From NCBI GenBank assembly GCA_963778905.1, contig CAVZWH010000024.1:12498-76497 (forward strand): DNA of 64,000 nt, in the 5' to 3' direction. The notes beneath the pieces are model-generated. The model ran no database searches, was not told the origin of the DNA, and saw only the letters and a list, made by a program, of their open reading frames with translations. Positions 5,999 to 52,967 of this stretch are shown in pieces; position 1 is the stretch's first letter, and each line of letters starts with the position of its first letter. Origin of the DNA: Candidatus Staskawiczbacteria bacterium (GTDB taxonomy: Bacteria; Patescibacteriota; Minisyncoccia; Minisyncoccales; Staskawiczbacteraceae). Position numbers and translations under genes: made by a program.

Positions 5999-6937
5999 AT
6001 GAATTATTCTTTGCCTGAGGCAAAATTTAACGTTGAATTTTTGCAAAATTTTTTAGAAAGCAATATTTTGTTATATTGCATTATTTTGCTTTTGGCATTA
6101 AAAATTATTACCGTTGCTGTCTCTATCAATTTTCCGCAGAATATATTTTTTGCCGACATAACAAGGGCATCTCTTGAAAATTTTGCAAACCAGACACGTC
6201 AATCAGTGGGTTTGCCCTCGTTGGTAGAAAATCAAAAATTAGATCAGGCCGCCCAATCAAAGGCAGAAAATATGGTGGCAGATGATTATTTTGCCCACAC
6301 AAGCCCGCAAGGAATTACGCCGTGGTATTGGTTTTTGCAAGCCGGATATAATTATAAATATGCCGGAGAAAATTTGGCAATTGGGTTTTTTGATTCGCAA
6401 GAAGTTTATAACGCCTGGTTAAATTCTCCTTCGCATAAGGCAAATATTGTAAATCCAAATTACAAGGAAGTTGGCACGGCCGTGTTGGCTGGATTCGGCC
6501 CAAACAATACAATTGTTGTTGTTCAGGATTTTGGAAGCCAGTTGCCGGCAAAACAAGTTGCAACCCAGCCAAAACAGACTTCAGCTGTTAAACCAAGTGA
6601 ACAAACCCCGGTTGCCAATGCCGGAGAAAAAGTTTTGTCGCAATCAACAGAATCGCAAAGTACGTTGGAAACCGCCAAAACAGGCAGTTCAAATGTTTAT
6701 TCTAAAATTATGAATTCTGTTTTATACAATTATGGCGGATTGTTGCAGGACATTATTTACGGAGTTTCTTTGGTCGTGATAGGAATTTTGCTTGCGCTGA
6801 TATTTTTTAACGCAAGCATTCCTTTTGAAAATAAACTTGTATTTAGGTCGGTTCTTATTGTAATATTATTATCACTGGCAACATTATTAAACAAAGGTTT
6901 TATAGTTGCAATTATTCCGTATCAAATAATTATTTAA
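5999..6937 (+). CDS. CAP (SCP/PR-1-like) domain secreted protein with C-terminal membrane anchor
   Basis: YFAHTSPQG...GENLAIGF...WLNSPSHKANI CAP-domain signature; N- and C-terminal hydrophobic segments. Confidence 0.7.
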   Translation: MNYSLPEAKFNVEFLQNFLESNILLYCIILLLALKIITVAVSINFPQNIFFADITRASLENFANQTRQSVGLPSLVENQKLDQAAQSKAENMVADDYFAHTSPQGITPWYWFLQAGYNYKYAGENLAIGFFDSQEVYNAWLNSPSHKANIVNPNYKEVGTAVLAGFGPNNTIVVVQDFGSQLPAKQVATQPKQTSAVKPSEQTPVANAGEKVLSQSTESQSTLETAKTGSSNVYSKIMNSVLYNYGGLLQDIIYGVSLVVIGILLALIFFNASIPFENKLVFRSVLIVILLSLATLLNKGFIVAIIPYQIII

Positions 6938-6938
6938 T

Positions 6939-7643
6939 ATGAACAAAGAAAACGCAAAGAAAATTTTGAAATTGGCTGTCGCGATATATCTGGCAAGTTT
7001 TCTGATTATTAACTGGAATGATGTTTCCTGGATTTTTAATTACAAAGAGGTTGCCGGATTAGTGGAAGATTTTTTCAATCCATATCCATCTATAGATGCT
7101 TCTACCATGAACGCATATTTTTATCCAAATCATAGCCAAGATGCTACTTCTGTGGCAACAGGACAACCTGTCGCCCAATCCATTAAAAACGTAAAAACAA
7201 ATTTTACGGACCAGCAAAACACATTAGAGGTTCCCAAATTATCTCTTTTGCTTCCCATAGTTTTTGCAGACAGCACAGATAAAGAAACTATGGCAAAAGA
7301 TCTTGATTTGGGAGTGGTATTTTATCCGGGATCAGTTTATCCCGGCCAAACCGGTCAGATGATAATTTTGGGGCACTCGGCTCCTCCTGGCTGGCCGCAC
7401 ATAAAACACGACTGGGCTTTTACCGACTTAGATAAGTTAGTTCCCGGAGATACAATATTAATTGACTTAAATAACAAACAATATACATATGTAGTAAAAG
7501 AAAAAGATATTATTAAAAGAGGAGCCGATGTCCCAACAGATAGTTCGGCCATTAATAATAATGTCCTAACACTGATTAGTTGCTGGCCGCCGGGAAAAGA
7601 TTATCAAAGGATAGCAGTTTCAGCAGAGTTCCAAAACAACTAA
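6939..7643 (+). CDS. sortase family transpeptidase
   Basis: N-terminal TM, conserved His (ILGHS) and TLISCWP (TLxTC catalytic Cys) motif. Confidence 0.75.
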   Translation: MNKENAKKILKLAVAIYLASFLIINWNDVSWIFNYKEVAGLVEDFFNPYPSIDASTMNAYFYPNHSQDATSVATGQPVAQSIKNVKTNFTDQQNTLEVPKLSLLLPIVFADSTDKETMAKDLDLGVVFYPGSVYPGQTGQMIILGHSAPPGWPHIKHDWAFTDLDKLVPGDTILIDLNNKQYTYVVKEKDIIKRGADVPTDSSAINNNVLTLISCWPPGKDYQRIAVSAEFQNN

Positions 7644-7787: not shown

Positions 7788-10700
7788 ATGAATACATTTT
7801 TGAAAGTTTTCGTAATAACCGGCCTAACTATAGTTTCGGCAATTTTGATTTCCGTAACAATGGCGCCGGCTACGGCCAGAGCATTAAGTTGTGATGGGAA
7901 TTCAGGTCCTGCTAACCAAGGAACAGTTGTTTTAGCCCAAGACAGCACAGTAACCGTGACTGTTAATTATATCTGTAATGATCTTAGGGACACGGATTAT
8001 TTCGGTTTGTCGTCTCCAACAAAAATTACTTTTGGAGAAGCCCATAGTTCATCAAACGGATCATATAACGCTGGAAATTTCAAAGCAGGTACAGAACTAA
8101 TATTTTTTCTTTATGACGCCACTCATGGCAATACATGGTACACTGGTCCTGCCTCCAGAAACTCAGATGGACAAGTCCATGCAGATTTCAGAAATGTCGG
8201 AACCAATAACTGGACTATTGGTTTTAATGATGCAGCGTACCCAGCGGACAATAATTTATTCAACGATATTGTTATAAATGTGACCGCCACCCCTTCCTGC
8301 ACCGCCAACAGCACAAAACAGTGCTCGGGCAACGCAGTATATTGGTATAATTCATGTGGAACAAAAGGAAGCCTTTTTCAGCAATGTACATCAACACAAA
8401 CATGTACCAACGCTCAATGCGTAAACAATTGTACCCCCAACACCGCTAAGCAATGCGTCGGCAACGCTGTCTACAACTTTAACTCCTGCGGAGTTCAGGG
8501 TACTCTCTACCAGCAATGTACATCAAACCAGATTTGTCAGAACGCACAGTGCGTGAATATTGCCTGTTCATCAAACACCGACTGCGGTGCCAACGCCTAC
8601 ACCGGCTCACCCTTCTGCCAAGGCAACTCAGTTTACCAAAACTACATAACATACACATGTAACAACCCGGGAACAGCAAGCTCATCTTGTTCTAATAGTA
8701 CGGCCGCACAAAAGAAAAATGATTGTACAGCTAATCAGACGTGTTCGAACGGCGCATGCGTTAATCAAACCATCACCTGCACCAGCAACACCGACTGCGG
8801 AGCTAACGCCTACACCGGCTCACCCTTCTGCCAAGGCAACAGCGTTTACCAGAATTACATCACCTACACATGTAACAACGCTGGCACATCAACCTCGTAT
8901 TGCTCCAACAACACAGCAGCACAGAAAAAGAACGATTGCACAGCTAACCAGACCTGCGCCAACGGTTCGTGCACCAACCAGAACATAACCTGCACCAGCA
9001 ACACCGACTGCGGAACAAACAGCTACACCGGCTCACCCTTCTGTCAGTCAGGTAATGTATATCAAAACTACATAACATACACCTGCACTAATCCGGGAAC
9101 AGCCAGTTCGTACTGCTCAAACAACACAGCTTCACAATTAAAAACAACCTGCGCATCAGGACAGACCTGCGCCAACGGAAGCTGCTCAAATCAAACCATC
9201 ACCTGCACCAGCAACACCGACTGCGGAGCTAACGCCTACACCGGCTCACCCTTCTGCCAAGGCAACAGCGTTTACCAGAATTACATCACCTACACATGTA
9301 ACAACGCTGGCACATCAACCTCGTATTGCTCCAACAACACAGCAGCACAGAAAAAGAACGATTGCACAGCTAACCAGACCTGCGCCAACGGTTCGTGCAC
9401 CAACCAGAACATAACCTGCACCAGCAACACCGACTGCGGAACAAACAGCTACACCGGCTCACCCTTCTGTCAGTCAGGTAATGTATATCAAAACTACATA
9501 ACATACACCTGCACTAATCCGGGAACAGCCAGTTCGTACTGCTCAAACAACACAGCTTCACAATTAAAAACAACCTGCGCATCAGGACAGACCTGCGCCA
9601 ACGGAAGCTGCTCAAATCAAACCATCACCTGCACCAGCAACACCGACTGCGGAGCTAACGCCTACACCGGCTCACCCTTCTGCCAAGGCAACAGCGTTTA
9701 CCAGAATTACATCACCTACACATGTAACAACGCTGGCACATCAACCTCGTATTGCTCCAACAACACAGCAGCACAGCTAAAAACCACCTGCACGGGAAAC
9801 CAGACATGCAGCAACGGAAGCTGTTCAACAACCTGCACCCAAAACTCATATCAGCAATGCCAAGGAAACTATCTGTATTGGTACAACTCATGCGGAGTCC
9901 AGGAAGGCCAGTCGCAGTACTGCCCCAACGGATGCTCGGGCAACTCGTGCACGAACAACAACTGCACTTACCACTCGTACGAGCAGTGCATCGGCAACAA
10001 CCTTTACTGGTACAACTCGTGCGGAGTTCAGCAGGACTTGGTTCAGTACTGCCCAAACGGATGCTCAGGGAATACGTGCACGAACAATAATATTTATGCA
10101 ACAGTTCAAACAAATTCAGCGACAAATGTAAACAATAACCAGGCAACTCTAAATGGTTATTTATATTCCGGCAGCAACAATAATAATAATTGCACTAATT
10201 ATGTTTGGTTTCAATACGGACCAACTACTTCCTATGGGACTGAAACAAATCACCAGACGCAAGGTTATTCCGGAGCATTTAGCCAAATTGTAAACTTATA
10301 CAATAATTACAATACCAACAGCTATCACTTCAGGGCCGCAGCTCAGGATTGTTCGGGCAACACGGTTTACGGCCAGGACATGACAATTTACAGCAACAAT
10401 ATTGGAACAGGAACTTTAACCGTAAACAAAACAGTCAGAGACCTCACCACTGGTGCTGGATTTGCCAGCTCAACTTCAGCCTCTCCAAGCGATATGTTGA
10501 TGTTTATGATAACTTTGCAGAATACAGGCAGCCAAGATGTTTCAAATGTGATTGCCAGAGATTATCTTCCTGCAAACCTTATTTACAATGACCAGTTGAC
10601 CGTTGCCTGCACAACCAATAACAGCAATTACAATAATTGCAATGGAAGCAATTACAATTACACTGGAAATATTTCATCTGGCGTAAACTTAAATACAATA

Positions 10701-11087
10701 TATGCCGGCCAGACAGTAACAATTACTTATCAGGTGCAGGTTGCCGGAGCTGCAAACTTTTCTTACGGATCTACAACATTGAATAACAATGTTTCTGTAT
10801 CAAGCACTAACGGTAGCAACCCTACATCATCAGCATCAGTCATTGTAACCAGAACCGCAGTTTACGGAGCCAGCACAGTTTCAACCGGATTAACCAATAA
10901 TTTTTGGGTTGATTCGTTTTTCTTGCCATTATTGCTCACCTTAATTGGTCTTTGGATGTGGAGATCTGGAGTGTTTTTCGGAGTAGAAAAATGGTTAGAC
11001 AACAAGAAAAAAATCCGCAGAGGATACAAAGCAGAAAAAGAATTGAACCACAGAATTACTCAAATACAAAAGACAGAAAGAGTATAA
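7788..11087 (+). CDS. giant cysteine-rich repeat surface protein (signal peptide, ~15 Cys-rich modules, FN3-like + DUF11-like domains, C-terminal sorting-signal-like tail)
   Basis: Signal peptide-like N-terminus; alternating 71-aa six-Cys modules (CTSNTDCGANAYTGSPFCQGNSVYQNYITYTC...); YHFRAAAQ FN3-like; TLTVNKTVRDL...DYLPANLIY DUF11-like; C-terminal STGLTNN-hydrophobic-KKKIRRGYK tail. Confidence 0.8.
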   Translation: MNTFLKVFVITGLTIVSAILISVTMAPATARALSCDGNSGPANQGTVVLAQDSTVTVTVNYICNDLRDTDYFGLSSPTKITFGEAHSSSNGSYNAGNFKAGTELIFFLYDATHGNTWYTGPASRNSDGQVHADFRNVGTNNWTIGFNDAAYPADNNLFNDIVINVTATPSCTANSTKQCSGNAVYWYNSCGTKGSLFQQCTSTQTCTNAQCVNNCTPNTAKQCVGNAVYNFNSCGVQGTLYQQCTSNQICQNAQCVNIACSSNTDCGANAYTGSPFCQGNSVYQNYITYTCNNPGTASSSCSNSTAAQKKNDCTANQTCSNGACVNQTITCTSNTDCGANAYTGSPFCQGNSVYQNYITYTCNNAGTSTSYCSNNTAAQKKNDCTANQTCANGSCTNQNITCTSNTDCGTNSYTGSPFCQSGNVYQNYITYTCTNPGTASSYCSNNTASQLKTTCASGQTCANGSCSNQTITCTSNTDCGANAYTGSPFCQGNSVYQNYITYTCNNAGTSTSYCSNNTAAQKKNDCTANQTCANGSCTNQNITCTSNTDCGTNSYTGSPFCQSGNVYQNYITYTCTNPGTASSYCSNNTASQLKTTCASGQTCANGSCSNQTITCTSNTDCGANAYTGSPFCQGNSVYQNYITYTCNNAGTSTSYCSNNTAAQLKTTCTGNQTCSNGSCSTTCTQNSYQQCQGNYLYWYNSCGVQEGQSQYCPNGCSGNSCTNNNCTYHSYEQCIGNNLYWYNSCGVQQDLVQYCPNGCSGNTCTNNNIYATVQTNSATNVNNNQATLNGYLYSGSNNNNNCTNYVWFQYGPTTSYGTETNHQTQGYSGAFSQIVNLYNNYNTNSYHFRAAAQDCSGNTVYGQDMTIYSNNIGTGTLTVNKTVRDLTTGAGFASSTSASPSDMLMFMITLQNTGSQDVSNVIARDYLPANLIYNDQLTVACTTNNSNYNNCNGSNYNYTGNISSGVNLNTIYAGQTVTITYQVQVAGAANFSYGSTTLNNNVSVSSTNGSNPTSSASVIVTRTAVYGASTVSTGLTNNFWVDSFFLPLLLTLIGLWMWRSGVFFGVEKWLDNKKKIRRGYKAEKELNHRITQIQKTERV
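8769..9775 (+). repeat. perfect 426-bp (142-aa) tandem repeat, ~2.4 copies, inside the giant surface protein gene; diverged copy at ~8563-8768
   Basis: Identical nucleotide stretches begin at 8769, 9195 and 9621 (accatcacctgcaccagcaacaccgactgcggagctaacgcc...), third copy diverges near 9775. Confidence 0.9.
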
Positions 11088-11130: not shown

Positions 11131-11727
11131 ATTTGCGGCCTTCCAGCGCATTTTCTAAAGTTTCTTCGTCGGCGTACTCAAGTTCGCCGCCGACCGGAAT
11201 TCCTTTTGCCAGATGAGTGATTTTGAAAGCGGGCGAGGGAATTGCTTCTTTTATTGTGGATTCAACTAAAACAGATGTTGCTCTGCCTTCGGGCGTTGGA
11301 TTTAATGCAATAATTATTTCTGAAAAATTATTATCTTTTACTCTTTTTTTAGTTCTTCAATTCTTAATTGATTTATATCTTCTTTTCTCATTGTTGCCAC
11401 AGTTCCACCCAAAATGAAATAAAGTCCGTTATATTTTTTTGTGCTTTCAAGCGACAATAAATCTGTTTCTTTTTCAACTATGCAAAGCAGATTTTTATTT
11501 CTTGATGGATTTTGGCAAATAGTACATAATTTTTCACCGCCTTCAAAAGGGTCAAAACAAAGTTCGCATAATTTTATTTTGTTTTTTAATTCTATAATTG
11601 CATCTGCCAGCTCGTCTATTTTTTCTTTTGGCAGTTTCATCAAATAATAAACAAAACGGCCGGCAGTTCTGGAGCCAACCGTAGGAAATTTTCTAAAAAT
11701 ATCTTTTAGTTTTTCTATTGAATCCAT
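11129..11727 (-). CDS. recR: recombination protein RecR, interrupted by a frameshift in an A7/T7 homopolymer (11344-11350)
   Basis: N-terminal part (ORF 11338-11727: HhH, C4 zinc finger CELC...CTIC, start of Toprim LLCIVEKETD) stops at 11338; the rest of the Toprim/C-terminus (IIIALNPTPEGRATSV...ITHLAKGIPVGGELEYADEETL) continues in another frame down to the TAA at 11129. Confidence 0.7.
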
Positions 11728-11728
11728 A

Positions 11729-13078
11729 TTATGCTTCGCTAGAATATTCGCCTTTATCTAAATTTCTGAAACTTACCCTGTGTTCGTCAAAATATAAATC
11801 AATGCCGCCGGTTGGGCCATTTCTGTGCTTTTCAATTAAAATTTTTGCAACGTTTTTGCTCAGCGAATTTTCGTTGTATTTATCTTCTCTGTAAATAAAC
11901 ATTACAACATCGGCGTCCTGCTCAATGGCTCCGGATTCGCGCAAATCAGCCAATCTTGGAATTTGCGGGACTCTTGCCTCAACCGCGCGAGATAATTGGG
12001 ATAAAACAAGTACCGGCACATTTAATTCTTTTGCCAGCATTTTTAATGCCCTGGAATTTTCTGTGACCTGCTGAACCGCCGATTGAAATCTGTTCATTGG
12101 TTCCATCAACTGCAGATAATCTATAACAATTAATGACAAACCCTTGTTTGCCTGAAGCCGGCGCGCCATGGCTCTTATCTGCAAAATGTTTACAGAGCCG
12201 GCGTCGTCAATATACAAAGGCGCGTCAGACAAACTTCCCATGGCGTGCTGAATTCTTGAATAATCGTCTGATGTCAGCCGGCCGTTTCTTAAATTCCACA
12301 GATTAATATTTGCCATGCTGGCCAAAAGTCTGTCGGCTAATTGATCTTTTGACATTTCAAGCGAAAAAAGTCCGACTGGTTTATTTTCTAAAACCGCAAT
12401 GTTTCTGGCAATGTCTAAAGCCAGCGAAGTTTTTCCCATGCTTGGCCTGGCTGCCAAAATTACCAAATCAGATTTTTGCAAACCGCCCAAAATTTTATCT
12501 AAATCAGTAAAACCGGTTGCAACTCCGCGCAATTTGCCGGCATATTTTGAAAGCTCGTCTAATCTTTCAAAGGTGTCTGATAAAATATCTTTTATGGGCA
12601 AAAATGCCTGAGTCAAAGATCTTTGTCCAATTGAGAAAACAGTTTTTTCTGCTTTATCTAACAAAACATCAACTTCTTCTGCCTCGTCAAAAGCAGACAA
12701 ACCAATTTCTTCTGAGGCAGAAATTAAATCTCTTAAAATCTTTTTTTGTCTGACAATTTTTGCATAATTGGAAACGTGCGTGGCAGTTGGGACTGTGTTG
12801 ATTAAAGAGGTTAAATATGTTAACCCGCCAATATCTTCCAATTTATTTTTTTCTTTTAACCTGGCGGAAACCGAAAGAATATCAATTGGATTTGACCTTT
12901 CGTAAAGCTCGGCCATTGCGCCAAATATATCTTGGTGGATTCCTTTGTAAAAATCTTCTGCTTTTATAAAATCAACAATTTTTACAATTGCATCTTTGTC
13001 CAACATCAAACAGCCCAGCAAACATTGTTCTGCTTCAGTATTTTGCGGAGGAAGTTTTTCTGCCAATTCTTTAGCCAT
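11729..13078 (-). CDS. dnaB: replicative DNA helicase DnaB
   Basis: Walker A GKTSLALDIARN, DnaB N-terminal and RecA-like C-terminal motifs, 449 aa (no intein). Confidence 0.9.
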   Translation of the reverse strand: MAKELAEKLPPQNTEAEQCLLGCLMLDKDAIVKIVDFIKAEDFYKGIHQDIFGAMAELYERSNPIDILSVSARLKEKNKLEDIGGLTYLTSLINTVPTATHVSNYAKIVRQKKILRDLISASEEIGLSAFDEAEEVDVLLDKAEKTVFSIGQRSLTQAFLPIKDILSDTFERLDELSKYAGKLRGVATGFTDLDKILGGLQKSDLVILAARPSMGKTSLALDIARNIAVLENKPVGLFSLEMSKDQLADRLLASMANINLWNLRNGRLTSDDYSRIQHAMGSLSDAPLYIDDAGSVNILQIRAMARRLQANKGLSLIVIDYLQLMEPMNRFQSAVQQVTENSRALKMLAKELNVPVLVLSQLSRAVEARVPQIPRLADLRESGAIEQDADVVMFIYREDKYNENSLSKNVAKILIEKHRNGPTGGIDLYFDEHRVSFRNLDKGEYSSEA

Positions 13079-20868: not shown

Positions 20869-21456
20869 ATGATTACAATTTTAACTGACGAAAATTTTGA
20901 GGAACAAATAAAAAGCATTGAAAAATTAGTGCTTGTTGATTTTTTTGCAACGTGGTGCGAGCCGTGCTCTGTGCTCGCTCCGATTTTAGAAAAAATTGCA
21001 GAAGAGTTGAAAGAAAAAATTATTTTAATGAAGGCCAATCTTGACGATGTTCCAAAAGCTGCGGGAAAATTTGGAGTTGAAAAAATTCCGACAATAATTT
21101 TATTCAAAAACGGCCAGCCAATTTCAGGACTTGTTGGATTAGCCCCATATTCTTCAATTAAAGAATGGATAGAAAATGCGGAAAAAGAAAACGAACCGGA
21201 TATTAAAGAAATAATAAACAGATATGATAATTATGCAAAATCAAACGGATTTAGATTAAATCCTGACAAAAAAATAGTTGAAAGAGTTGTTAAGGGACTT
21301 TTAGCCAATGAAAAAAAATACGGGAAAAAATATTGTCCATGCAGAAGAATTTCTGGCAACGAAGAAAAAGATTCAGAAAAAATTTGCCCTTGCGCATTTC
21401 ACAAACAAGAAATTGAAAAAGACGGCCATTGTTTGTGCAATTTATATGTAAAATAG
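20869..21456 (+). CDS. thioredoxin domain fused to ferredoxin-thioredoxin-reductase catalytic-subunit-like Cys-rich domain
   Basis: N-terminal Trx fold with WCEPC active site; C-terminal YCPCRR...ICPCAFH...GHCLCNLY resembles FTR-beta CPC/CPC/CHC cluster. Confidence 0.6.
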   Translation: MITILTDENFEEQIKSIEKLVLVDFFATWCEPCSVLAPILEKIAEELKEKIILMKANLDDVPKAAGKFGVEKIPTIILFKNGQPISGLVGLAPYSSIKEWIENAEKENEPDIKEIINRYDNYAKSNGFRLNPDKKIVERVVKGLLANEKKYGKKYCPCRRISGNEEKDSEKICPCAFHKQEIEKDGHCLCNLYVK

Positions 21457-21489: not shown

Positions 21490-23433
21490 ATGGATGGCGA
21501 AATCGCAAACGCTAAAAAACAAAGCGACAGGACAATAAGCTATATAGAGGCCATTTTTTTGCCGCTGATACTGGCGGTCTTGTTTACAATACAAAATCAG
21601 GCATTTAACGGGTGGCTGGGTCTTTATTCAAAAGCATATTCTGTAAGGTTGTCTTTGGTGACTTTTGCGTTGGGAATTATTTTGTACGGTCCTTCTTTGC
21701 TTTTCAAAAAAAGATATAAATATATATATCTTTTTTTGATTTCATTTTTAGTTTTTTTTATTTTTTCTGCCCAATTTTTATATTACAGATATTCGCAAAG
21801 TTTTTTGCAATTTTCAGCAATAAAATATTTAGGCCAGGCAGACAGCGTGGAGGGCACTGTAAAAACTTTGCTTACGCCGGAGTTGCTGCTGTTTTTTAGC
21901 AATGTAATTATAGTTTTAATCGCGCTGATTTTAACATCCAGAAAAAAATATATAGAATTTGTTTTGCCAAAATGGGAAAAAATAATTATTATTTTAGCGA
22001 TGATAATTATGGTGGTTATTGGATATAAATATCTTTTGGACACAGAAAAAAAAGAGTGGGGAAGCACCAGCCGGCTTTATACAGACGTTTATGACTTAAA
22101 AACGCTGGTGGGCAAAATGGGAATTATGAATTTTTTTCTTGAAGATACGTTTAAGTATGTTTTAAGAAGTAATTTAATTTCAGCAGCCGATAAAAATTTT
22201 TTACAAACTTTTGCAAAAAACAGGACAACGCCAGAAACCGGCCAAAAATATTTTGCTTCAGAAAAAGGAAAAAATGTCATAATTATACAGGTGGAATCTT
22301 TGGAAAACGCTGTTATAAATAAAACAATTAATGGTCAGGAAATTACTCCAAACTTAAATCAGTTGGCAAAAAATGGCTTGTATTTTGACAATTATTACAC
22401 TCAAATTGGCCCGGGCAATACTGCTGACGCCGAATTTTCCACAATGGATTCTTTATATCCTTTGCCAGACGACGTGGTTTTTATTGATTATGCAAAAAAT
22501 CAGTACAATGCCTTGCCGCAGCTTCTTGTAAATAGTGGCTATGAAACTTATTCTATGCACGGAGATGTGCCGACATTTTGGAACCGGTCAAATATTTATC
22601 CTAGTTTGGGATACCAAAAAGCTTATGACTTAGACGATTATGTTGTGACAAGGCCGGTTGGCAAGGGTCCGTCTGATTTGGGAGATGAAGATTTATTTTC
22701 GCAGTCTTTGCCAAGATTAAAAAATTTTAAGCAGCCGTTTATGGCAACTTTAATCACAATGAGTTCGCACACCCCGTTTATTTTGCCAGATGATTTGCAG
22801 ACCTTGCAAATTCCGTCTGACACAACTTTGAATTACCAACAGCAGCAATATTTAGAAAGTGTGCACTATACTGACAAAGCAATCGGCGAATTTATAGACG
22901 GATTAAAAAAAGACGGCTTATATAACAATTCTTTAATTTTTATCTGGGGCGACCACGGAAGTTTTACAAATATTTCTTCGGCTTTGGGCCAAGATAAAAA
23001 TACTTTGCCGGAATTAGCTAACAGCCAGGTGCCGATGATTATTTTGGGAACAAATTTAACCGGAACCATAAATACTCCTGGCAGCCATTTGGATATTTAT
23101 CCTACTATTACAAATCTTTTGGGAATTACAGCTCCCAAAACTATTTTAGGCCAAGATTTATTAAACACAAAAGGACCCGCAAGCGGGTACCCCGTTGAAA
23201 CGCATTTTGAACTTGTTTCCGGCGGCATAGATGCTATTCTAACTGCTAATTTGGCGTATCGGGCAAGTGAGGACGGCTTGTTCAAAGACGGTTCTTGCGA
23301 ATCCTGGCCAGACCAAAAATCTCTGCCAATTACTAATTGTCAAAATTTATATAACCAGCAGGCAGAAAACATAAAAGCTTCTAATATTATTATAAGAGGC
23401 AATTTGCTTTATGTACTTGACAAACAAAGATAA
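21490..23433 (+). CDS. LTA-synthase/sulfatase-family membrane protein (LtaS-like phosphoglycerol transferase)
   Basis: 5 N-terminal TM helices + extracellular alkaline-phosphatase-like domain (QVESLENA..., YYTQIGPGNTADAEFSTMDSLYP, HGDV, IWGDHG). Confidence 0.7.
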   Translation: MDGEIANAKKQSDRTISYIEAIFLPLILAVLFTIQNQAFNGWLGLYSKAYSVRLSLVTFALGIILYGPSLLFKKRYKYIYLFLISFLVFFIFSAQFLYYRYSQSFLQFSAIKYLGQADSVEGTVKTLLTPELLLFFSNVIIVLIALILTSRKKYIEFVLPKWEKIIIILAMIIMVVIGYKYLLDTEKKEWGSTSRLYTDVYDLKTLVGKMGIMNFFLEDTFKYVLRSNLISAADKNFLQTFAKNRTTPETGQKYFASEKGKNVIIIQVESLENAVINKTINGQEITPNLNQLAKNGLYFDNYYTQIGPGNTADAEFSTMDSLYPLPDDVVFIDYAKNQYNALPQLLVNSGYETYSMHGDVPTFWNRSNIYPSLGYQKAYDLDDYVVTRPVGKGPSDLGDEDLFSQSLPRLKNFKQPFMATLITMSSHTPFILPDDLQTLQIPSDTTLNYQQQQYLESVHYTDKAIGEFIDGLKKDGLYNNSLIFIWGDHGSFTNISSALGQDKNTLPELANSQVPMIILGTNLTGTINTPGSHLDIYPTITNLLGITAPKTILGQDLLNTKGPASGYPVETHFELVSGGIDAILTANLAYRASEDGLFKDGSCESWPDQKSLPITNCQNLYNQQAENIKASNIIIRGNLLYVLDKQR

Positions 23434-23465: not shown

Positions 23466-25037
23466 ATGAAAAACACAATTTTCAAACAAATATTTCTTTT
23501 AACTATTTGTTTTTTGCTTCTTTCCGTTGGCACAGCTGTATTTGCTCAAACCGTATCGCAAATTCAGACAAATTCAGCAACAAACATATCCAGCTACCAA
23601 GCAACCTTAAACGGATATTCATCCGGAAGTTCTTATAATACATATGTTTATTTTCAGTGGGGAACAACAAATGGCTATGGCAGCCAAACAAATCAACAAA
23701 ATATAAACTCTGCCGGCTCGTTTATCCAAGTTATCGCAGGTTTATCCGCCAACACCACTTACCATTTTAGAGCAGTTGCGCAAAACAATTACGGAACAGT
23801 TTATGGAAATGACATGACTTTTTACACAAGCGGAACCGGCACAAACACAATAACAGCCAACGCCGGACCAGATTTGTATTTGGGTTCTGGGCAAGCGGCA
23901 ACTTTGCAGGGTTCGGGATACGATCCAAACGGATATTCAATAAATTATTATTGGACATGCAATGGCGGAACTTTATCAAATTACAATATTGCTCAGCCAA
24001 CTTACACAGCTCCCTACGCAATCAATGGCAGCAGCCAAACAACTTATACTTGCACGCTTACAGCTACAAATAGTTATGGAAGTTCAAATTCAGACAGCAT
24101 GATAGTTTATGTAAATTATAATAACAACAATAACAACGGATCTTTTTATGCGCAGACAAATTCAGCAACAAATGTTCAAAATAATCAAGCAACCTTAAAC
24201 GGATATGAAGCCGGCGGCGCAACTTACAATAATTATGTTTGGTTTCAATACGGAACTGACACAAATTATGGAAACAATACAAACCAGCAGACGTTAAATT
24301 ATTCCGGCTCGTTTACCCAAAACATTGCAAACCTTTCTTACAACACCACTTACCATTTTAGAGCAGTTGCAGAAAGCAGTGGTCAAACAGTTTATGGCCA
24401 GGATATGACTTTCAACAGCAACGGCTCAAATAATAATTATTATGGCAATGGATCTTTATCAATTACAAAGCAAGTTATAAATCTTTCTTCTGGAAACTTA
24501 GCTTGGCAGTCATCAGTAAACGCAAAACCTGGCGACGTATTAAGTTTTGCCATAACTTTGCAGGCAACTGGCGGCCAGGAAATTGACAATGTTTTTGTGC
24601 GCGACAATCTGCCCGCAGACCTAATTTACAAAGGAAATATGACCGTAAATGCTTCGCAAAATTATTCGGGAAACCCTGCGTCGGGAATTAACATCGGCAC
24701 AATTCCAGCTGGCGGAATAGAAGTTATTGCTTATCAGGCGCAAGTGGCTCCGGCAGCAAATTTCATTTATGGAACAACAACATTAAGCAACAATGCAACC
24801 ATTACCAGCACAGAAGCGGGAACGCAAACCGCCAGCGCATCAGTTTTTGTGAATAATTCGTTGGTTTACGGAGCAGCAACATCTGTTTCAACCGGCTTAA
24901 CCAACAACCCAATAACAGATTCATTTTTCTTGCCAATGATTTTAATTATTTTTGGCTCTTGGTTTTATTTTTCAGGAAACGTTTACAAATTTTCCGACTG
25001 GCTTGGGTCACGGTTAGGAATTGGAATAAAGTTTTAG
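23466..25037 (+). CDS. surface protein with two FN3-like domains and DUF11-like domain; C-terminal tail homologous to that of the giant protein at 7788-11087
   Basis: Signal peptide; two TNSATN...ATLNGY...TYHFRAVA repeats; DUF11-like ITKQVINLSSG...DNLPADLIY; C-terminus VYGAATSVSTGLTNNPITDSFFLPMILIIFGSWFYF. Confidence 0.7.
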   Translation: MKNTIFKQIFLLTICFLLLSVGTAVFAQTVSQIQTNSATNISSYQATLNGYSSGSSYNTYVYFQWGTTNGYGSQTNQQNINSAGSFIQVIAGLSANTTYHFRAVAQNNYGTVYGNDMTFYTSGTGTNTITANAGPDLYLGSGQAATLQGSGYDPNGYSINYYWTCNGGTLSNYNIAQPTYTAPYAINGSSQTTYTCTLTATNSYGSSNSDSMIVYVNYNNNNNNGSFYAQTNSATNVQNNQATLNGYEAGGATYNNYVWFQYGTDTNYGNNTNQQTLNYSGSFTQNIANLSYNTTYHFRAVAESSGQTVYGQDMTFNSNGSNNNYYGNGSLSITKQVINLSSGNLAWQSSVNAKPGDVLSFAITLQATGGQEIDNVFVRDNLPADLIYKGNMTVNASQNYSGNPASGINIGTIPAGGIEVIAYQAQVAPAANFIYGTTTLSNNATITSTEAGTQTASASVFVNNSLVYGAATSVSTGLTNNPITDSFFLPMILIIFGSWFYFSGNVYKFSDWLGSRLGIGIKF

Positions 25038-50318: not shown

Positions 50319-51413
50319 ATGAATTATTATGAAGTTCTTGGAGTGCAGAAAACCGCCTCACAAGACGAAATAAAAAAAGCATTTCACAAACTGGCGCACA
50401 AATATCATCCGGACAAGGGCGGCGATGAAAAAAAGTTCAAGGAAATAAACGAGGCGTACCAGGTGCTTTCAGATAAACAAAAACGCGAGCAGTACGACCA
50501 ATACGGCAGAGTTTTTGAAAACGGTCAGCCAGGCGGAGATCAGGGATTTAATTGGGCATGGGGCAACAGACCCGGGGGACCCTCTGGGTCGGAAGAAATT
50601 GAGTTTGATTTTGGAGATGTTGGCGATATTTTTGCAGAATTTTTTGGCGGAGCGCGACCAGGCAGAGGCAGAAAAGATTTTAAAAAAGGAAAAGACATAC
50701 AAGTTGATATAGAAATAAATTTAGAAAAAACGCTGAAAGAATTTGTTGAAAAAATAATTTTAGCAAAGCAAGTTGTTTGCCACAGATGCCAAGGTACCGG
50801 AGCCGAAGTTGGAAGCAAAATAAAAGAATGTTTTTCCTGCAGAGGAACAGGACAAGTTCAGCAGATTAAAAAAACATTTTTGGGTTCGTACACAACTTTG
50901 GCAACGTGCCCCGAATGCAAAGGCGAAGGAACAATTCCCGAAAAACCATGCAACGTTTGCAAGGGCGAAGGCAGAATAAAAGGCGAAGAAACAATTGAAG
51001 TGCATATTCCCGCTGGAATTGACACAAATCAGGTAATCAAGGTTGACGGAAAAGGAGAGGCAGGAAAAAAAGGAGCAAAAGCAGGAAATTTATTTGTCAG
51101 AATTTTTGTAAAACAGCATTCTGCATTTGAAAGAAGGGGAGACGATTTATTTTCAGAATTTGAAGTAAATTTTTCGCAGGCAGCTTTGGGAGATGAAATT
51201 GAAATGAAAACATTGGAGGGCACAAACATTTTGTTGGAAGTTCCGGCAGGAACAGAATCAGGAAAAGTTTTAAGAATTTCGGGAAAAGGAATTCCGCATT
51301 TTGGCGGATATGGCAGAGGAAATTTGTATATTGAATTGAAAGTAAAAACACCGCGCAAATTATCCAGAAAACAAAAAGAATTATTAGAAAAATTAAAAGA
51401 GGAGGGAATTTAA
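50319..51413 (+). CDS. dnaJ: molecular chaperone DnaJ
   Basis: J-domain with HPD (KYHPDKG), G/F-rich region, four CxxCxGxG zinc-finger repeats. Confidence 0.9.
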
Positions 51414-51422
51414 TTTCCACAT

Positions 51423-51494
51423 GCCCCGGTAGCTCAATGGTAGAGCAGTAGCCTTTTAAGCTATTGGTTCCGAGTTCGAGTCTCGGCCGGGGCA
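51423..51494 (+). tRNA. tRNA-Lys (anticodon TTT)
   Basis: Acceptor gccccgg/ccggggc, D-arm gctc-AATGGTA-gagc, anticodon stem gtagc/gctat loop cuUUUaa, T-arm ccgag-TTCGAGT-ctcgg. Confidence 0.9.
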
Positions 51495-52967
51495 CAAATT
51501 AGAACAGCCGTTCGCCAAAGCCATTGCTTGGAACGGCTTTTTAAGTGTAAAAGTGAGGTTTTTACCGCTTAATTTGGAGTTCTGAAATAGAAAGTTGATA
51601 AATGCTCGCTTTTCCATTGGTTCAGAACTTTTGAATAGCGAATATGCCCGTTTAGCAAGGCTCATAATCATTGCAATAGTGATATAAAATTCTTTGTCGG
51701 CTTTCTGATGTTTTTCCATTTCCTTGTTTAGGGCTGTCTGTTTTGCGTCGTATTCGTTGATTTTTTTATCGTAGTCCTCTTTGGCTATTTCCTCGTCAGC
51801 TAATCTATCAAGCAAGTTGCTTTTTCTTTTTGCATATTTATCGTGCTCTGCCCGCAGAGTTTTCATTGAGCCCTCGTAAAACTCATTCTTTGCGTCCTCG
51901 CTCTGTGCCAAAAGCGTCATTAGGCGTGTTTTTTGCCTCTCTGTGAGGCTTATCTTGCGGAGAACCTTGTATATTGGCTTAAATAGGTCATTCTCGTTGA
52001 CATAGAGCCTTTTAGTGTGCATTTTCTTGCTGTTGGTGCAACTATAATAATGATATTTGCCTTTGTGTGTTTCCGCCGTAATCGTGCAACCGCAATCGGC
52101 ACATTTTACCAAACCTCTGAAAGCATAAGGTTTGCAAGCGTATCTAAACTGCTTTTTATTAAAGCCACTAAAAACATCTTGCACTCGGTCAAATAATTGT
52201 TTTGAAATTAAAGGCTCGTATCGGTGCGGATAGAGAACTCCCTTAATTCTCATTTGCCCGTAATAAAACGGGTCTCGTAAAATAATATAAATTTGTCCTC
52301 TTGGTAGGGGCTTGGGAGTTTTGGTATTGCTTCTTAATCCCGCCCTTTCCATTACCTCTTGAATTTGTTTAGTTGAGGAAGTCCCAGTTGCATACATCTC
52401 AAACATCTTAACAATAAATTGACTTCTTAACGGGTCGGGTATTACATTTATTCTTTTGCCCGTATCGTCATAAACTCCCACATAGCCGATTTTTGGTTTT
52501 GTAATCCATTCTTTGTTTTGTATCTTTTGCTCGTAGCTTCTTTTAACATCATCAGAAAGCCTATTAAGATATTGTTTAGCCAAAAATACTTTCGCCTCCC
52601 ACATAAACATCTGGTTGCCTGTTGCATTTTTATTTACAAAAAACCCGTCTTGCACAAAATGAATTTCTAAATCCTCTTTGCGTCGCATTTCGTCTAAATC
52701 AACAGCGTCCTTGAAATTCCTTGTTGCTCGGTCAACATTCTCACAAAGCAAAACTCTAACATCTTTATGGCTTCTAATATACGCAATAACTTCCTCAAAC
52801 TTTTTTCTTATTTTATCTCCCGCACTTTCGTGAAATGAAAAAGTCTCAACTATTTCAAAGTCTTTTTTCTTTGCATATTCCTGCAACCTCCTTATTTGAG
52901 CGGGGAGTGAGTGTCCCTGCTCCTCCTGCTCCTTTGTTGAAACTCTTGCGAGTATTACCGCTTTCAT
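51456..52967 (-). CDS. large serine recombinase (resolvase-type catalytic domain + recombinase/zinc-ribbon domains)
   Basis: N-terminal VILARVSTKEQ...SLPAQ catalytic Ser motif, C-terminal CADCGCT...YYSC zinc ribbon, coiled-coil; 3' end overlaps tRNA-Lys antisense; ATG overlaps res stop (ATGA). Confidence 0.8.
   Translation of the reverse strand: MKAVILARVSTKEQEEQGHSLPAQIRRLQEYAKKKDFEIVETFSFHESAGDKIRKKFEEVIAYIRSHKDVRVLLCENVDRATRNFKDAVDLDEMRRKEDLEIHFVQDGFFVNKNATGNQMFMWEAKVFLAKQYLNRLSDDVKRSYEQKIQNKEWITKPKIGYVGVYDDTGKRINVIPDPLRSQFIVKMFEMYATGTSSTKQIQEVMERAGLRSNTKTPKPLPRGQIYIILRDPFYYGQMRIKGVLYPHRYEPLISKQLFDRVQDVFSGFNKKQFRYACKPYAFRGLVKCADCGCTITAETHKGKYHYYSCTNSKKMHTKRLYVNENDLFKPIYKVLRKISLTERQKTRLMTLLAQSEDAKNEFYEGSMKTLRAEHDKYAKRKSNLLDRLADEEIAKEDYDKKINEYDAKQTALNKEMEKHQKADKEFYITIAMIMSLAKRAYSLFKSSEPMEKRAFINFLFQNSKLSGKNLTFTLKKPFQAMALANGCSNLCPGRDSNSEPIA
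51506..51542 (+). terminator. rho-independent terminator after tRNA-Lys (lies antisense within recombinase ORF)
   Basis: agccgttc...gaacggct hairpin + TTTT. Confidence 0.6.

What the first reader, a model, noticed from the sequence alone, without database searches (positions are those of the whole stretch)
8769..9775. Perfect 426-bp tandem repeats inside the giant surface-protein gene
Three repeat starts at 8769, 9195 and 9621 are nucleotide-identical over hundreds of bases (about 2.4 copies), with a more diverged copy just upstream at 8563-8768. Nucleotide identity implies very recent duplication or ongoing copy-number variation by recombination/slippage, which is a classic route to antigenic or size variation of surface proteins. 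It also means assemblers may have collapsed or expanded the true copy number. The antisense ORFs in this region (9712-10146 minus, 9752-10090 plus, 8719-8988 plus) are artefacts of the repeat's low complexity.
Basis: seen in the sequence. Interest (0 to 1): 0.55.

Follow-up and report, generated by a model that had tools for sequence, protein, structure and literature searches.

The report
Recently duplicated modules in surface protein
A cell-surface protein gene of an uncultivated ultra-small (CPR) bacterium holds a perfectly duplicated block of two cysteine-rich 71-residue modules, a familiar route to length change in bacterial surface proteins, and short-read assemblies cannot be trusted on its copy number.

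Summary
Window 8763-9776 (1014 nt) is a 100% identical tandem repeat of period 426, 2.38 copies.

The basic unit is 213 nt (71 aa, eight invariant Cys). Two subtypes, A and B, are about 71% identical and alternate as A'-A-B-A-B-A*.

The gene (7788-11087, 1099 aa) is not giant. It has a signal peptide, a DUF4114-like tip, four short and six long Cys-rich modules, DUF11, a conserved VSTGLTNN motif, a TM helix and a conserved tail. It follows a sortase gene in a locus syntenic across about 20 Staskawiczbacteria-like (CPR) genomes.

Homologues carry 0-13 modules. Modules are more alike within a species than between species, which indicates concerted evolution.

In a sister species, two assemblies with flanks identical at 11,998 of 12,000 nt differ by exactly three modules. 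This is either real copy-number variation or assembler disagreement.

Best reading: a recent in-frame unequal recombination in the stalk of a Periscope-like surface protein. The window's copy number (1.38, 2.38 or more) is unverified.

The module matches no Pfam or NCBIfam family, and the Foldseek search of PDB found no similar fold. The antigenic-variation claim is untested.

This is a new member of a known kind, of moderate interest.

The parts
7788..11087 (+). Surface-protein gene, 1099 aa, that contains the repeat
   Evidence: ORF. There are 230 homologues at E<=1e-5, mostly CPR bacteria plus some DPANN archaea. It is syntenic in about 20 genomes.
7788..7883 (+). Predicted Sec signal peptide (aa 1-32, hydrophobic core, ATARA then LS)
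   Evidence: Read directly from the translation. No predictor was run.
7884..8291 (+). N-terminal tip domain, DUF4114-like
   Evidence: Pfam PF13448 scores 22.3 bits, below the 27-bit cutoff, on aa 98-167. Homologues P0003-P0005 carry PF13448. The tip domain is replaced by unrelated domains in orthologues L001 and L002.
8298..8552 (+). Two short (~43 aa, 6-Cys) modules
   Evidence: Regex and translation. They share only the C-terminal motif with the long modules (hhalign probability 94%).
8550..8762 (+). Long module A' (71 aa, 8 Cys), an older diverged copy
   Evidence: 74-77% nt identity to A.
8763..9776 (+). Perfect tandem repeat, period 426 nt, 2.38 copies: A (8763-8975), B (8976-9188), A (9189-9401), B (9402-9614), and the first 162 nt of A* (9615-9776)
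9777..9827 (+). Diverged tail of module A*. Identity to A drops abruptly from 100% to 61%. The tail is B-like (74.5%).
   Evidence: A sharp breakpoint of this kind is typical of recombination or gene conversion.
9834..10079 (+). Two further short 6-Cys modules (129-nt period)
   Evidence: Family D2.
10467..10832 (+). DUF11 / TIGR01451 domain
   Evidence: Pfam scores 27.2 bits against a 24.6 cutoff. NCBIfam scores 26.2 bits against a 24 cutoff.
10854..11084 (+). Conserved C-terminal anchor: TAVYGAST-VSTGLTNN motif (10854-10901), hydrophobic helix (10902-10982), and a KKKIRR-rich 34-aa conserved tail (10983-11084)
   Evidence: Alignment of 29 homologues. The same motif closes a second protein at 23466-25037.
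6939..7643 (+). Sortase gene immediately upstream, with an N-terminal TM helix and H (ILGHS), C (TLISC) and R residues present
   Evidence: Pfam Sortase at 9.3e-19. Translation. The adjacency is conserved.
5999..6937 (+). CAP/YkwD-family secreted protein, a conserved neighbour
23466..25037 (+). Paralogous surface protein with the same C-terminal anchor but no Cys-rich modules

Best explanation
The repeat is the coding sequence of autonomously folding, disulfide-rich 71-residue beta modules. These modules form the middle (stalk) part of a secreted, C-terminally anchored surface protein of a Staskawiczbacteria-like CPR bacterium.

Shown: the array is a higher-order repeat in which two old module subtypes, A and B, alternate. 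One A-B block (426 nt, 142 codons, in frame) is present twice without a single difference. A third A copy is identical for 162 nt and then switches abruptly to an older, B-like tail.

Inferred: the simplest history has two steps. First, conversion of the start of the last module to A-type. Second, one unequal homologous crossover (or replication slippage) between the 162-nt identical segments, which adds exactly one A-B block. Every module is a multiple of 3 nt and folds on its own, so any integer number of modules gives a functional protein. The family therefore gains, loses and homogenises modules over time.

Inferred consequence: a change in stalk length, and so in how far the N-terminal tip domain is held from the cell. 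This is the logic of Periscope proteins. The exact number of A-B blocks in the real genome is not established by this assembly.
For: - The perfect repeat and its A/B substructure are shown.
- All 8 Cys per module are invariant in 62 di-modules.
- AlphaFold2 models the di-module at mean pLDDT 94.4 as an all-beta structure with three long strands plus a short hairpin per module.
- Module number ranges from 1 to 13 among the 60 best-scoring homologues counted. One syntenic orthologue, L016, is too short to hold any module.
- Concerted evolution: module nt identity is 0.71-0.80 within a species and 0.54-0.65 between species. There is no 1:1 module orthology with the closest relative, L005.
- Recurrence: exact runs of 500, 410 and 287 nt occur in orthologue L001, and 659 nt in L004.
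- L001 and L026 have flanks identical at 11,998 of 12,000 nt, but arrays of 8 and 5 modules with mosaic differences.
- Surface location: signal peptide, sortase neighbour, DUF11, and a conserved motif plus TM plus tail shared with a paralogue.
- The concept matches the Periscope class as reviewed in PMC9704523.
Against: - No reads and no second genome of the same species were available. The exact protein is a singleton cluster, no contig is on record for it, and a 28-mer of unit A is absent from the JGI metagenomes.
- The layout R-tail-B-R-tail-B-R-tail* is what an assembler produces by going round a graph loop one time too many or too few. Relatives are all MAGs, and several contigs break in this gene.
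- Only about 5 of 105 homologues hold >=95% identical modules. Strain sets with diverged modules show fixed length. Fast variation is therefore not a general property of the family.
- The function of the tip domain is unknown.
Confidence: 0.6

Rival explanations
1. The copy number is an assembly artefact. The real gene has A'-A-B-A* (1.38 copies) or more than two A-B blocks, and the assembler mis-counted passes through a loop created by the 162-nt exact repeat.
For: - The observed structure is exactly one extra pass through a loop.
- All relatives are MAGs, and at least 5 of 22 contigs end inside this gene.
- Two assemblies of practically the same genome give 8 and 5 modules, and one of them is a MEGAHIT k141 contig.
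- PMC9704523 states that short reads cannot resolve such repeats.
Against: - Even the collapsed form keeps a perfect 162-nt repeat 426 nt apart, so recent exchange is real in any case.
- The ORF stays intact.
- Mosaic orders such as X-Y-Y-X-Y-X in L001 are not simple loop errors.
- The sequencing technology of the window is unknown.
Confidence: 0.3
2. Identity is maintained by gene conversion under selection for uniform modules. This would be homogenisation without any standing copy-number variation in the population.
For: - Modules are more alike within a species than between species.
- The A-to-A* boundary is sharp, like a conversion tract.
- Length is fixed in strain sets of relatives.
Against: - Conversion alone does not explain the variation in module number among homologues (0-13), nor the 3-module difference between L001 and L026.
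- Conversion and unequal crossover use the same machinery and normally occur together.
Confidence: 0.15
3. It is a programmed, high-frequency size or antigenic variation system that evades phage or host recognition.
For: - Perfect long repeats favour frequent RecA-type exchange.
- In the sister species the array is rearranged while 12 kb of flank differs by 2 nt.
- Strain variation of Cys-rich surface proteins is reported in CPR Peribacteria (PMC4736985).
Against: - There is no evidence of population heterogeneity for this locus.
- No dedicated recombinase or silent cassette lies nearby: the neighbours are sortase, CAP, recR and dnaB.
- Most family members have old, diverged modules.
Confidence: 0.1

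Closest known systems
Periscope proteins (SasG/Aap G5-E, Rib/Alpha C/R28, Sgo0707 SHIRT, intimin BIg), as reviewed in PMC9704523
   Same: It is a secreted protein with an N-terminal tip domain and a C-terminal anchor beside a sortase. It carries tandem domain-sized repeats (71 aa) that are identical at the DNA level. Module number differs among relatives, and between two near-identical genomes of a sister species. Homologous recombination is the likely driver.
   Different: The organism is an uncultivated CPR bacterium, not a pathogen. The module is a new 8-Cys beta module with no Pfam or NCBIfam family and no Foldseek match in PDB. It is presumably stabilised by disulfides rather than a hydrophobic core. 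The repeat is an A-B dimer. Only 2.4 copies are identical, and the other modules are old. The anchor motif is not LPXTG. Strain-level variation and rod shape are not demonstrated here.
Large extracellular cysteine-rich proteins of CPR bacteria (Peribacteria; PMC4736985)
   Same: They are CPR surface proteins with about 7% Cys and a signal peptide. The cited paper proposes a role in attachment and notes strain variation. A sortase is present in those genomes.
   Different: That report gives no module definition. No homology with those proteins was tested here. This protein is shorter (1099 aa, against an average of 1655 aa) and belongs to a Staskawiczbacteria-type locus.
LPXTG cell-wall sorting signal substrates of sortases
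   Same: The tripartite C-terminus has a conserved short motif ending in TG, a hydrophobic helix and a basic segment. The sortase gene is adjacent and its catalytic H/C/R residues are intact.
   Different: The motif is [IVA]-[SP]-T-G-L-T-N-N, not LPXTG. A conserved 34-residue tail follows the helix, which suggests the tail has a function of its own. No NCBIfam sorting-signal model matches. Cleavage is untested.
DUF11 / TIGR01451 repeat surface proteins
   Same: One DUF11 domain scores above both curated cutoffs.
   Different: DUF11 is not the repeated element. The perfect repeat lies in a different, unclassified module.

Membership tests
Periscope proteins | Cell-surface attached protein (secretion signal, cell-distal functional domain, C-terminal anchor) | tested here: met
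   Sequence level only. The evidence is the signal peptide, the C-terminal motif plus TM plus basic tail conserved in 29 homologues and a paralogue, and the adjacent sortase.
Periscope proteins | Tandem repeats of more than 50 residues with very high DNA identity between repeats | tested here: met
   The 142-aa block (two 71-aa modules) is 100% identical over 1014 nt. The other four module comparisons are only 65-77%.
Periscope proteins | Repeat number varies between closely related strains or within a population | tested here: inconclusive
   No second genome of this species was found. Sister-species assemblies L001 and L026 have flanks identical at 11,998 of 12,000 nt and differ by 3 modules. 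Assembler error cannot be excluded.
Periscope proteins | Repeats form a rigid, rod-like stalk | not testable with these tools
   The AF2 di-module is confident (pLDDT 94.4; three long strands per module).
LPXTG-type sortase substrate | Canonical LPXTG (or a known class variant) pentapeptide | tested here: not met
   The motif is VSTGLTNN, with consensus [IVA][SP]TG. No LPXTG-like hit was found in the window ORFs. No NCBIfam signal model matches.
LPXTG-type sortase substrate | Hydrophobic segment and positively charged tail after the motif, with a sortase encoded in the genome | tested here: met
   The tail is unusually long (34 aa) and conserved.
LPXTG-type sortase substrate | Cleavage at the motif and linkage to peptidoglycan | not testable with these tools
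   This needs biochemistry.
DUF11 / TIGR01451 repeat protein | HMM score above the curated cutoff | tested here: met
   PF01345 scores 27.2 against a 24.6 cutoff. TIGR01451 scores 26.2 against a 24 cutoff.
Known Cys-rich repeat families (PF11617 MopE-type metal-binding motif, Dickkopf_N, EB module, ADAMTS_CR_2) | HMM match of the 71-aa or 43-aa module above threshold | tested here: not met
   Only sub-threshold noise was found: Dickkopf_N at E 0.18 and EB at E 3.8. Nothing matched in NCBIfam. The PDB profile search gave only a weak LDL-receptor match at 3.7e-4 over 27 residues.
Diversity-generating retroelement target (VR/TR pair) | Two near-identical repeats that differ at adenine positions | tested here: not met
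   The copies are 100% identical and tandem. A and B differ at all base types and in 40 of 71 codons. A reverse transcriptase was not searched for.

The most novel reading that the evidence does not exclude
CPR bacteria may possess their own Periscope-like system. It would consist of a sortase-linked surface protein whose stalk is built from a previously unclassified eight-cysteine beta module, which is also found in DPANN archaea. The stalk length would be retuned by recombination among DNA-identical modules, changing how far an exchangeable tip domain reaches towards host cells. The protein would be anchored through a non-LPXTG signal ([IV]STGLTNN) read by the adjacent sortase.
Probability: 0.25. 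Interest if true: 0.6.

Novelty: new member of a known kind. Interest (0 to 1): 0.4.

Why it matters
CPR bacteria are thought to live attached to other cells, and their attachment proteins are largely unknown. This locus gives a concrete, conserved candidate: a sortase plus a modular Cys-rich stalk protein with a swappable tip.

It also yields a definable new module with roughly 1,700 representative clusters and no Pfam or NCBIfam model in the copies searched here.

For genome users the practical point is a caution. The length of this gene in short-read MAGs is unreliable. In the one available pair of near-identical genomes, the two assemblies disagree by three modules.

The phenomenon itself, high-identity tandem domain repeats in a surface protein, is well known.

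Tried and rejected
- Looking up the exact protein's contig found none on record.
- The protein's cluster is a singleton.
- A scan of JGI metagenomes for a 28-mer of unit A gave 0 hits.
- The GTDB representative scan did not contain the source genome. The best relative is 67% identical.
- The PDB sequence-profile search gave only a weak LDL-receptor match.
- Pfam and NCBIfam scans of the modules and of the C-terminal signal returned nothing meaningful.
- A single 639-nt deletion does not convert L001 into L026; 59 mismatches remain. The difference between them is mosaic.
- The DGR idea was rejected because the copies are identical.
- The nested ORFs were rejected as genes. They are not conserved in orthologues and are explained by the T-poor composition.
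- Literature searches found no paper on this module or on a CPR sorting signal.
- I did not model the N-terminal domain, because only about 6 homologues share it.

Full report
**Observation**

Tandem Repeats Finder reports an array at 8763-9776 with period 426, 2.4 copies, 100% matches and no indels. It overlaps a looser 213-nt periodicity over 8574-9823 (74% matches). A direct offset scan gives one uninterrupted self-match of 588 nt at offset 426 starting at 8763, and 162 nt at offset 852. The identical tract is therefore 1014 nt long.

The diverged upstream copy is real: 8550-8762 is 74-77% identical to the next unit. The two unit subtypes differ in 40 of 71 codons, 22 of them synonymous, while the duplicated copies differ nowhere.

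**Anatomy**

The repeat lies in the ORF 7788-11087 (+), 1099 aa. This is the longest ORF in the window but not a giant one.

The basic unit is 213 nt, or 71 aa, with the spacing C-x5-C-x10-C-x13-C-x9-C-x11-C-x5-C-x4-C. Six such modules follow each other:
- A' at 8550-8762
- A at 8763-8975
- B at 8976-9188
- A at 9189-9401
- B at 9402-9614
- A* at 9615-9827

A and B are 71% identical in nucleotides. A* equals A for 162 nt and then falls abruptly to 61% identity, with a B-like tail (74.5%).

Two shorter six-Cys modules (~43 aa) flank the array on each side. They share only the C-terminal 'L..C..NQTC.NG.C' hairpin with the long modules (hhalign probability 94%).

Upstream of the modules are a signal peptide, read from the sequence, and a DUF4114-like domain that scores below threshold (22.3 bits against a 27-bit cutoff). 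Downstream is a DUF11/TIGR01451 domain that scores above both curated cutoffs.

The C-terminus is strongly conserved in 29 homologues. It reads TAVYGAS-[TS]-[IV]-STGLTNN, followed by a hydrophobic helix and a basic 34-residue tail. A second protein in the window (23466-25037) ends with the same motif and helix but has no Cys-rich modules.

**Context and origin**

The gene directly follows a sortase (6939-7643; Pfam 9.3e-19). The sortase has H, C (TLISC) and R residues in place. A CAP/YkwD protein lies before the sortase, and FemAB and FtsQ lie upstream of that. recR, dnaB and cysS lie downstream on the other strand.

The order FemAB-FtsQ-CAP-sortase-[this gene]-dnaB-cysS recurs in about 20 species-level genomes, nearly all labelled Candidatus Staskawiczbacteria or other CPR/Patescibacteria MAGs. 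The source genome itself is not among the GTDB representatives. The closest relative, L005, is 67% identical and has the same architecture with five diverged long modules.

**The module**

The 71-aa module has no Pfam or NCBIfam family. The PDB profile search gave no meaningful sequence match, and the Foldseek PDB search gave no structural match (best E 0.65).

An alignment of 62 di-modules has all 16 Cys invariant. AlphaFold2 models the di-module with mean pLDDT 94.4 as all-beta, with three long strands plus a short hairpin per module.

A profile search of 1.84 billion representative proteins finds 1,700 proteins at E<=1e-3 and 1,064 at E<=1e-10. Named hits are CPR bacteria and DPANN archaea.

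**Evolutionary behaviour**

- The 60 best-scoring homologues counted carry 1 to 13 long modules. One syntenic orthologue, L016, is too short to hold any.
- Modules are more similar within a species (mean nt identity 0.71-0.80) than between species (0.54-0.65). This is concerted evolution.
- There is no one-to-one module orthology with the closest relative.
- The 426-nt (two-module) period is also seen by TRF in the orthologues L001 and L002.
- Identical modules are the exception. Only about 5 of 105 multi-module homologues have pairs at >=95% identity.
- Identical modules nevertheless recur. L001 has exact runs of 500, 410 and 287 nt, and L004 has one of 659 nt.

The most telling comparison is L001 (JGI, 97.6-kb contig) against L026 (ENA, MEGAHIT k141, 122.5-kb contig). 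They share 11,998 of 12,000 flanking nucleotides, yet they encode 1111-aa and 898-aa proteins. The difference is exactly three modules, with further mosaic differences that a single deletion does not explain.

Relatives with diverged modules, by contrast, keep a constant length. Ten variants at 98.7-99.9% identity are all 841 aa. The 1187-aa P0002 is identical in two samples.

**Mechanism**

I conclude that the perfect repeat records a very recent in-frame exchange between modules.

The layout is R-tailA-B-R-tailA-B-R-tail*, where R is the 162-nt segment shared by A and A*. This layout is what one unequal crossover or slippage between two R copies produces from an A'-A-B-A* ancestor. The earlier identity of R in A* needs a conversion step. 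The sharp 100%-to-61% boundary fits that.

Each module is 3n nucleotides long and folds on its own, so gain or loss is tolerated. The expected effect is a change in the length of a disulfide-stapled stalk between the membrane or wall anchor and an exchangeable tip domain. The tip differs among syntenic orthologues.

This is how Periscope proteins are described (PMC9704523). The duplication, the module character and the surface features are shown. The recombination route, the stalk role and any population-level variation are inferred.

**The main caveat**

The same layout is also what an assembler yields when it passes a graph loop once too often or too seldom. All relatives are MAGs, and at least five of 22 related contigs stop inside this gene. 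The L001/L026 disagreement may be assembler-made.

No reads, no second genome and no identical contig were available. The true number of A-B blocks may therefore be one, two or more. Even the collapsed form keeps a perfect 162-nt repeat, so recent exchange is real either way.

The three nested ORFs exist. Two of them are on the + strand, and two lie mostly in the short-module region. They are not conserved in position in orthologues. They follow from the T-poor composition (17% T against 31% for the window), which removes stop codons. Calling them artefacts is right, but the stated reason is imprecise. Antigenic variation is not supported by any evidence here.

**Comparison and novelty**

The finding works like a Periscope protein and meets two of that class's four defining features: surface attachment and DNA-identical domain repeats. 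Strain-level variation is inconclusive, and rod shape could not be tested.

It is not a canonical LPXTG protein, because the motif is [IVA][SP]TG-LTNN and the tail is long and conserved.

Large Cys-rich extracellular proteins with strain variation have been noted in CPR Peribacteria (PMC4736985). I found no description of this module or of this sorting motif.

I rate it a new member of a known kind, of moderate interest.

Noticed in passing
window 11132-11727 (-): recR is split by a -1 frameshift in a poly-A run (A7 at about 11343-11349, where the reading frame needs A8). The N-terminal part is a 129-aa ORF. The C-terminal 73 aa are 93% identical to the L002 RecR but sit in another frame. This is either a pseudogene or a homopolymer sequencing error. 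Orthologous loci have an intact 199-200 aa RecR.
   Followed up: partly
window 8295-10088: The Cys-rich modules use very different synonymous codons from the rest of the same gene and from its neighbours. GC3 is 0.61-0.74 against 0.30-0.38, AAC is 79% against 27%, and TAC is 83% against 12%. The effect is lineage-specific: weaker in L005 and reversed in L001. Biased gene conversion, translational selection and foreign origin are all possible.
   Followed up: partly
window 23466-25037 (+): A paralogous 523-aa surface protein has two Fn3-like repeats, a PKD-like domain and DUF11, and the same VYGA-x-T-x-VSTGLTNN plus TM C-terminus. It sits directly after an LtaS-like sulfatase-family gene (21490-23433). 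This supports a shared, undescribed C-terminal sorting or anchor signal.
   Followed up: partly
window 10983-11084: The 34-residue tail after the TM helix (EKWLDNKKK..R.YKAEKELNSRIA.I.K.E) is conserved across 25 or more homologues. This is unusual for a sortase signal that would be cleaved off, and it hints that the tail has a role inside the cell.
   Followed up: no
homologues P0047, P0076, P0084, P0101, P0119: The same 71-aa module occurs in DPANN archaea (Pacearchaeota and Nanoarchaeota labels). P0047 has up to 13 modules. A surface module is therefore shared between CPR bacteria and DPANN archaea.
   Followed up: no
L001, L002, L005, L007 versus the window, N-terminal 170 aa: The tip domain of this syntenic gene is swapped between species. 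It is DUF4114-like in the window, L005 and L007, and unrelated in L001 and L002. The L016 orthologue lacks the whole ectodomain stalk.
   Followed up: partly
window 20869-21456 (+): Thioredoxin is fused to a domain resembling the catalytic beta chain of ferredoxin-thioredoxin reductase, in one 195-aa protein.
   Followed up: no
window about 51400-51500: Gene orientation and GC skew both switch sign here. Genes are on the + strand up to 51.4 kb and on the - strand from 51.5 to 61.3 kb, and cumulative skew peaks here. A tRNA-Lys sits at the junction. This may be a replication landmark or only an operon boundary.
   Followed up: no
L008 and L022 (same MAG, CAYIVF01): Two contigs of one MAG carry the same FemAB-to-sortase stretch. 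One of them ends inside the repeat gene. This suggests strain heterogeneity or a repeat-induced assembly split.
   Followed up: no
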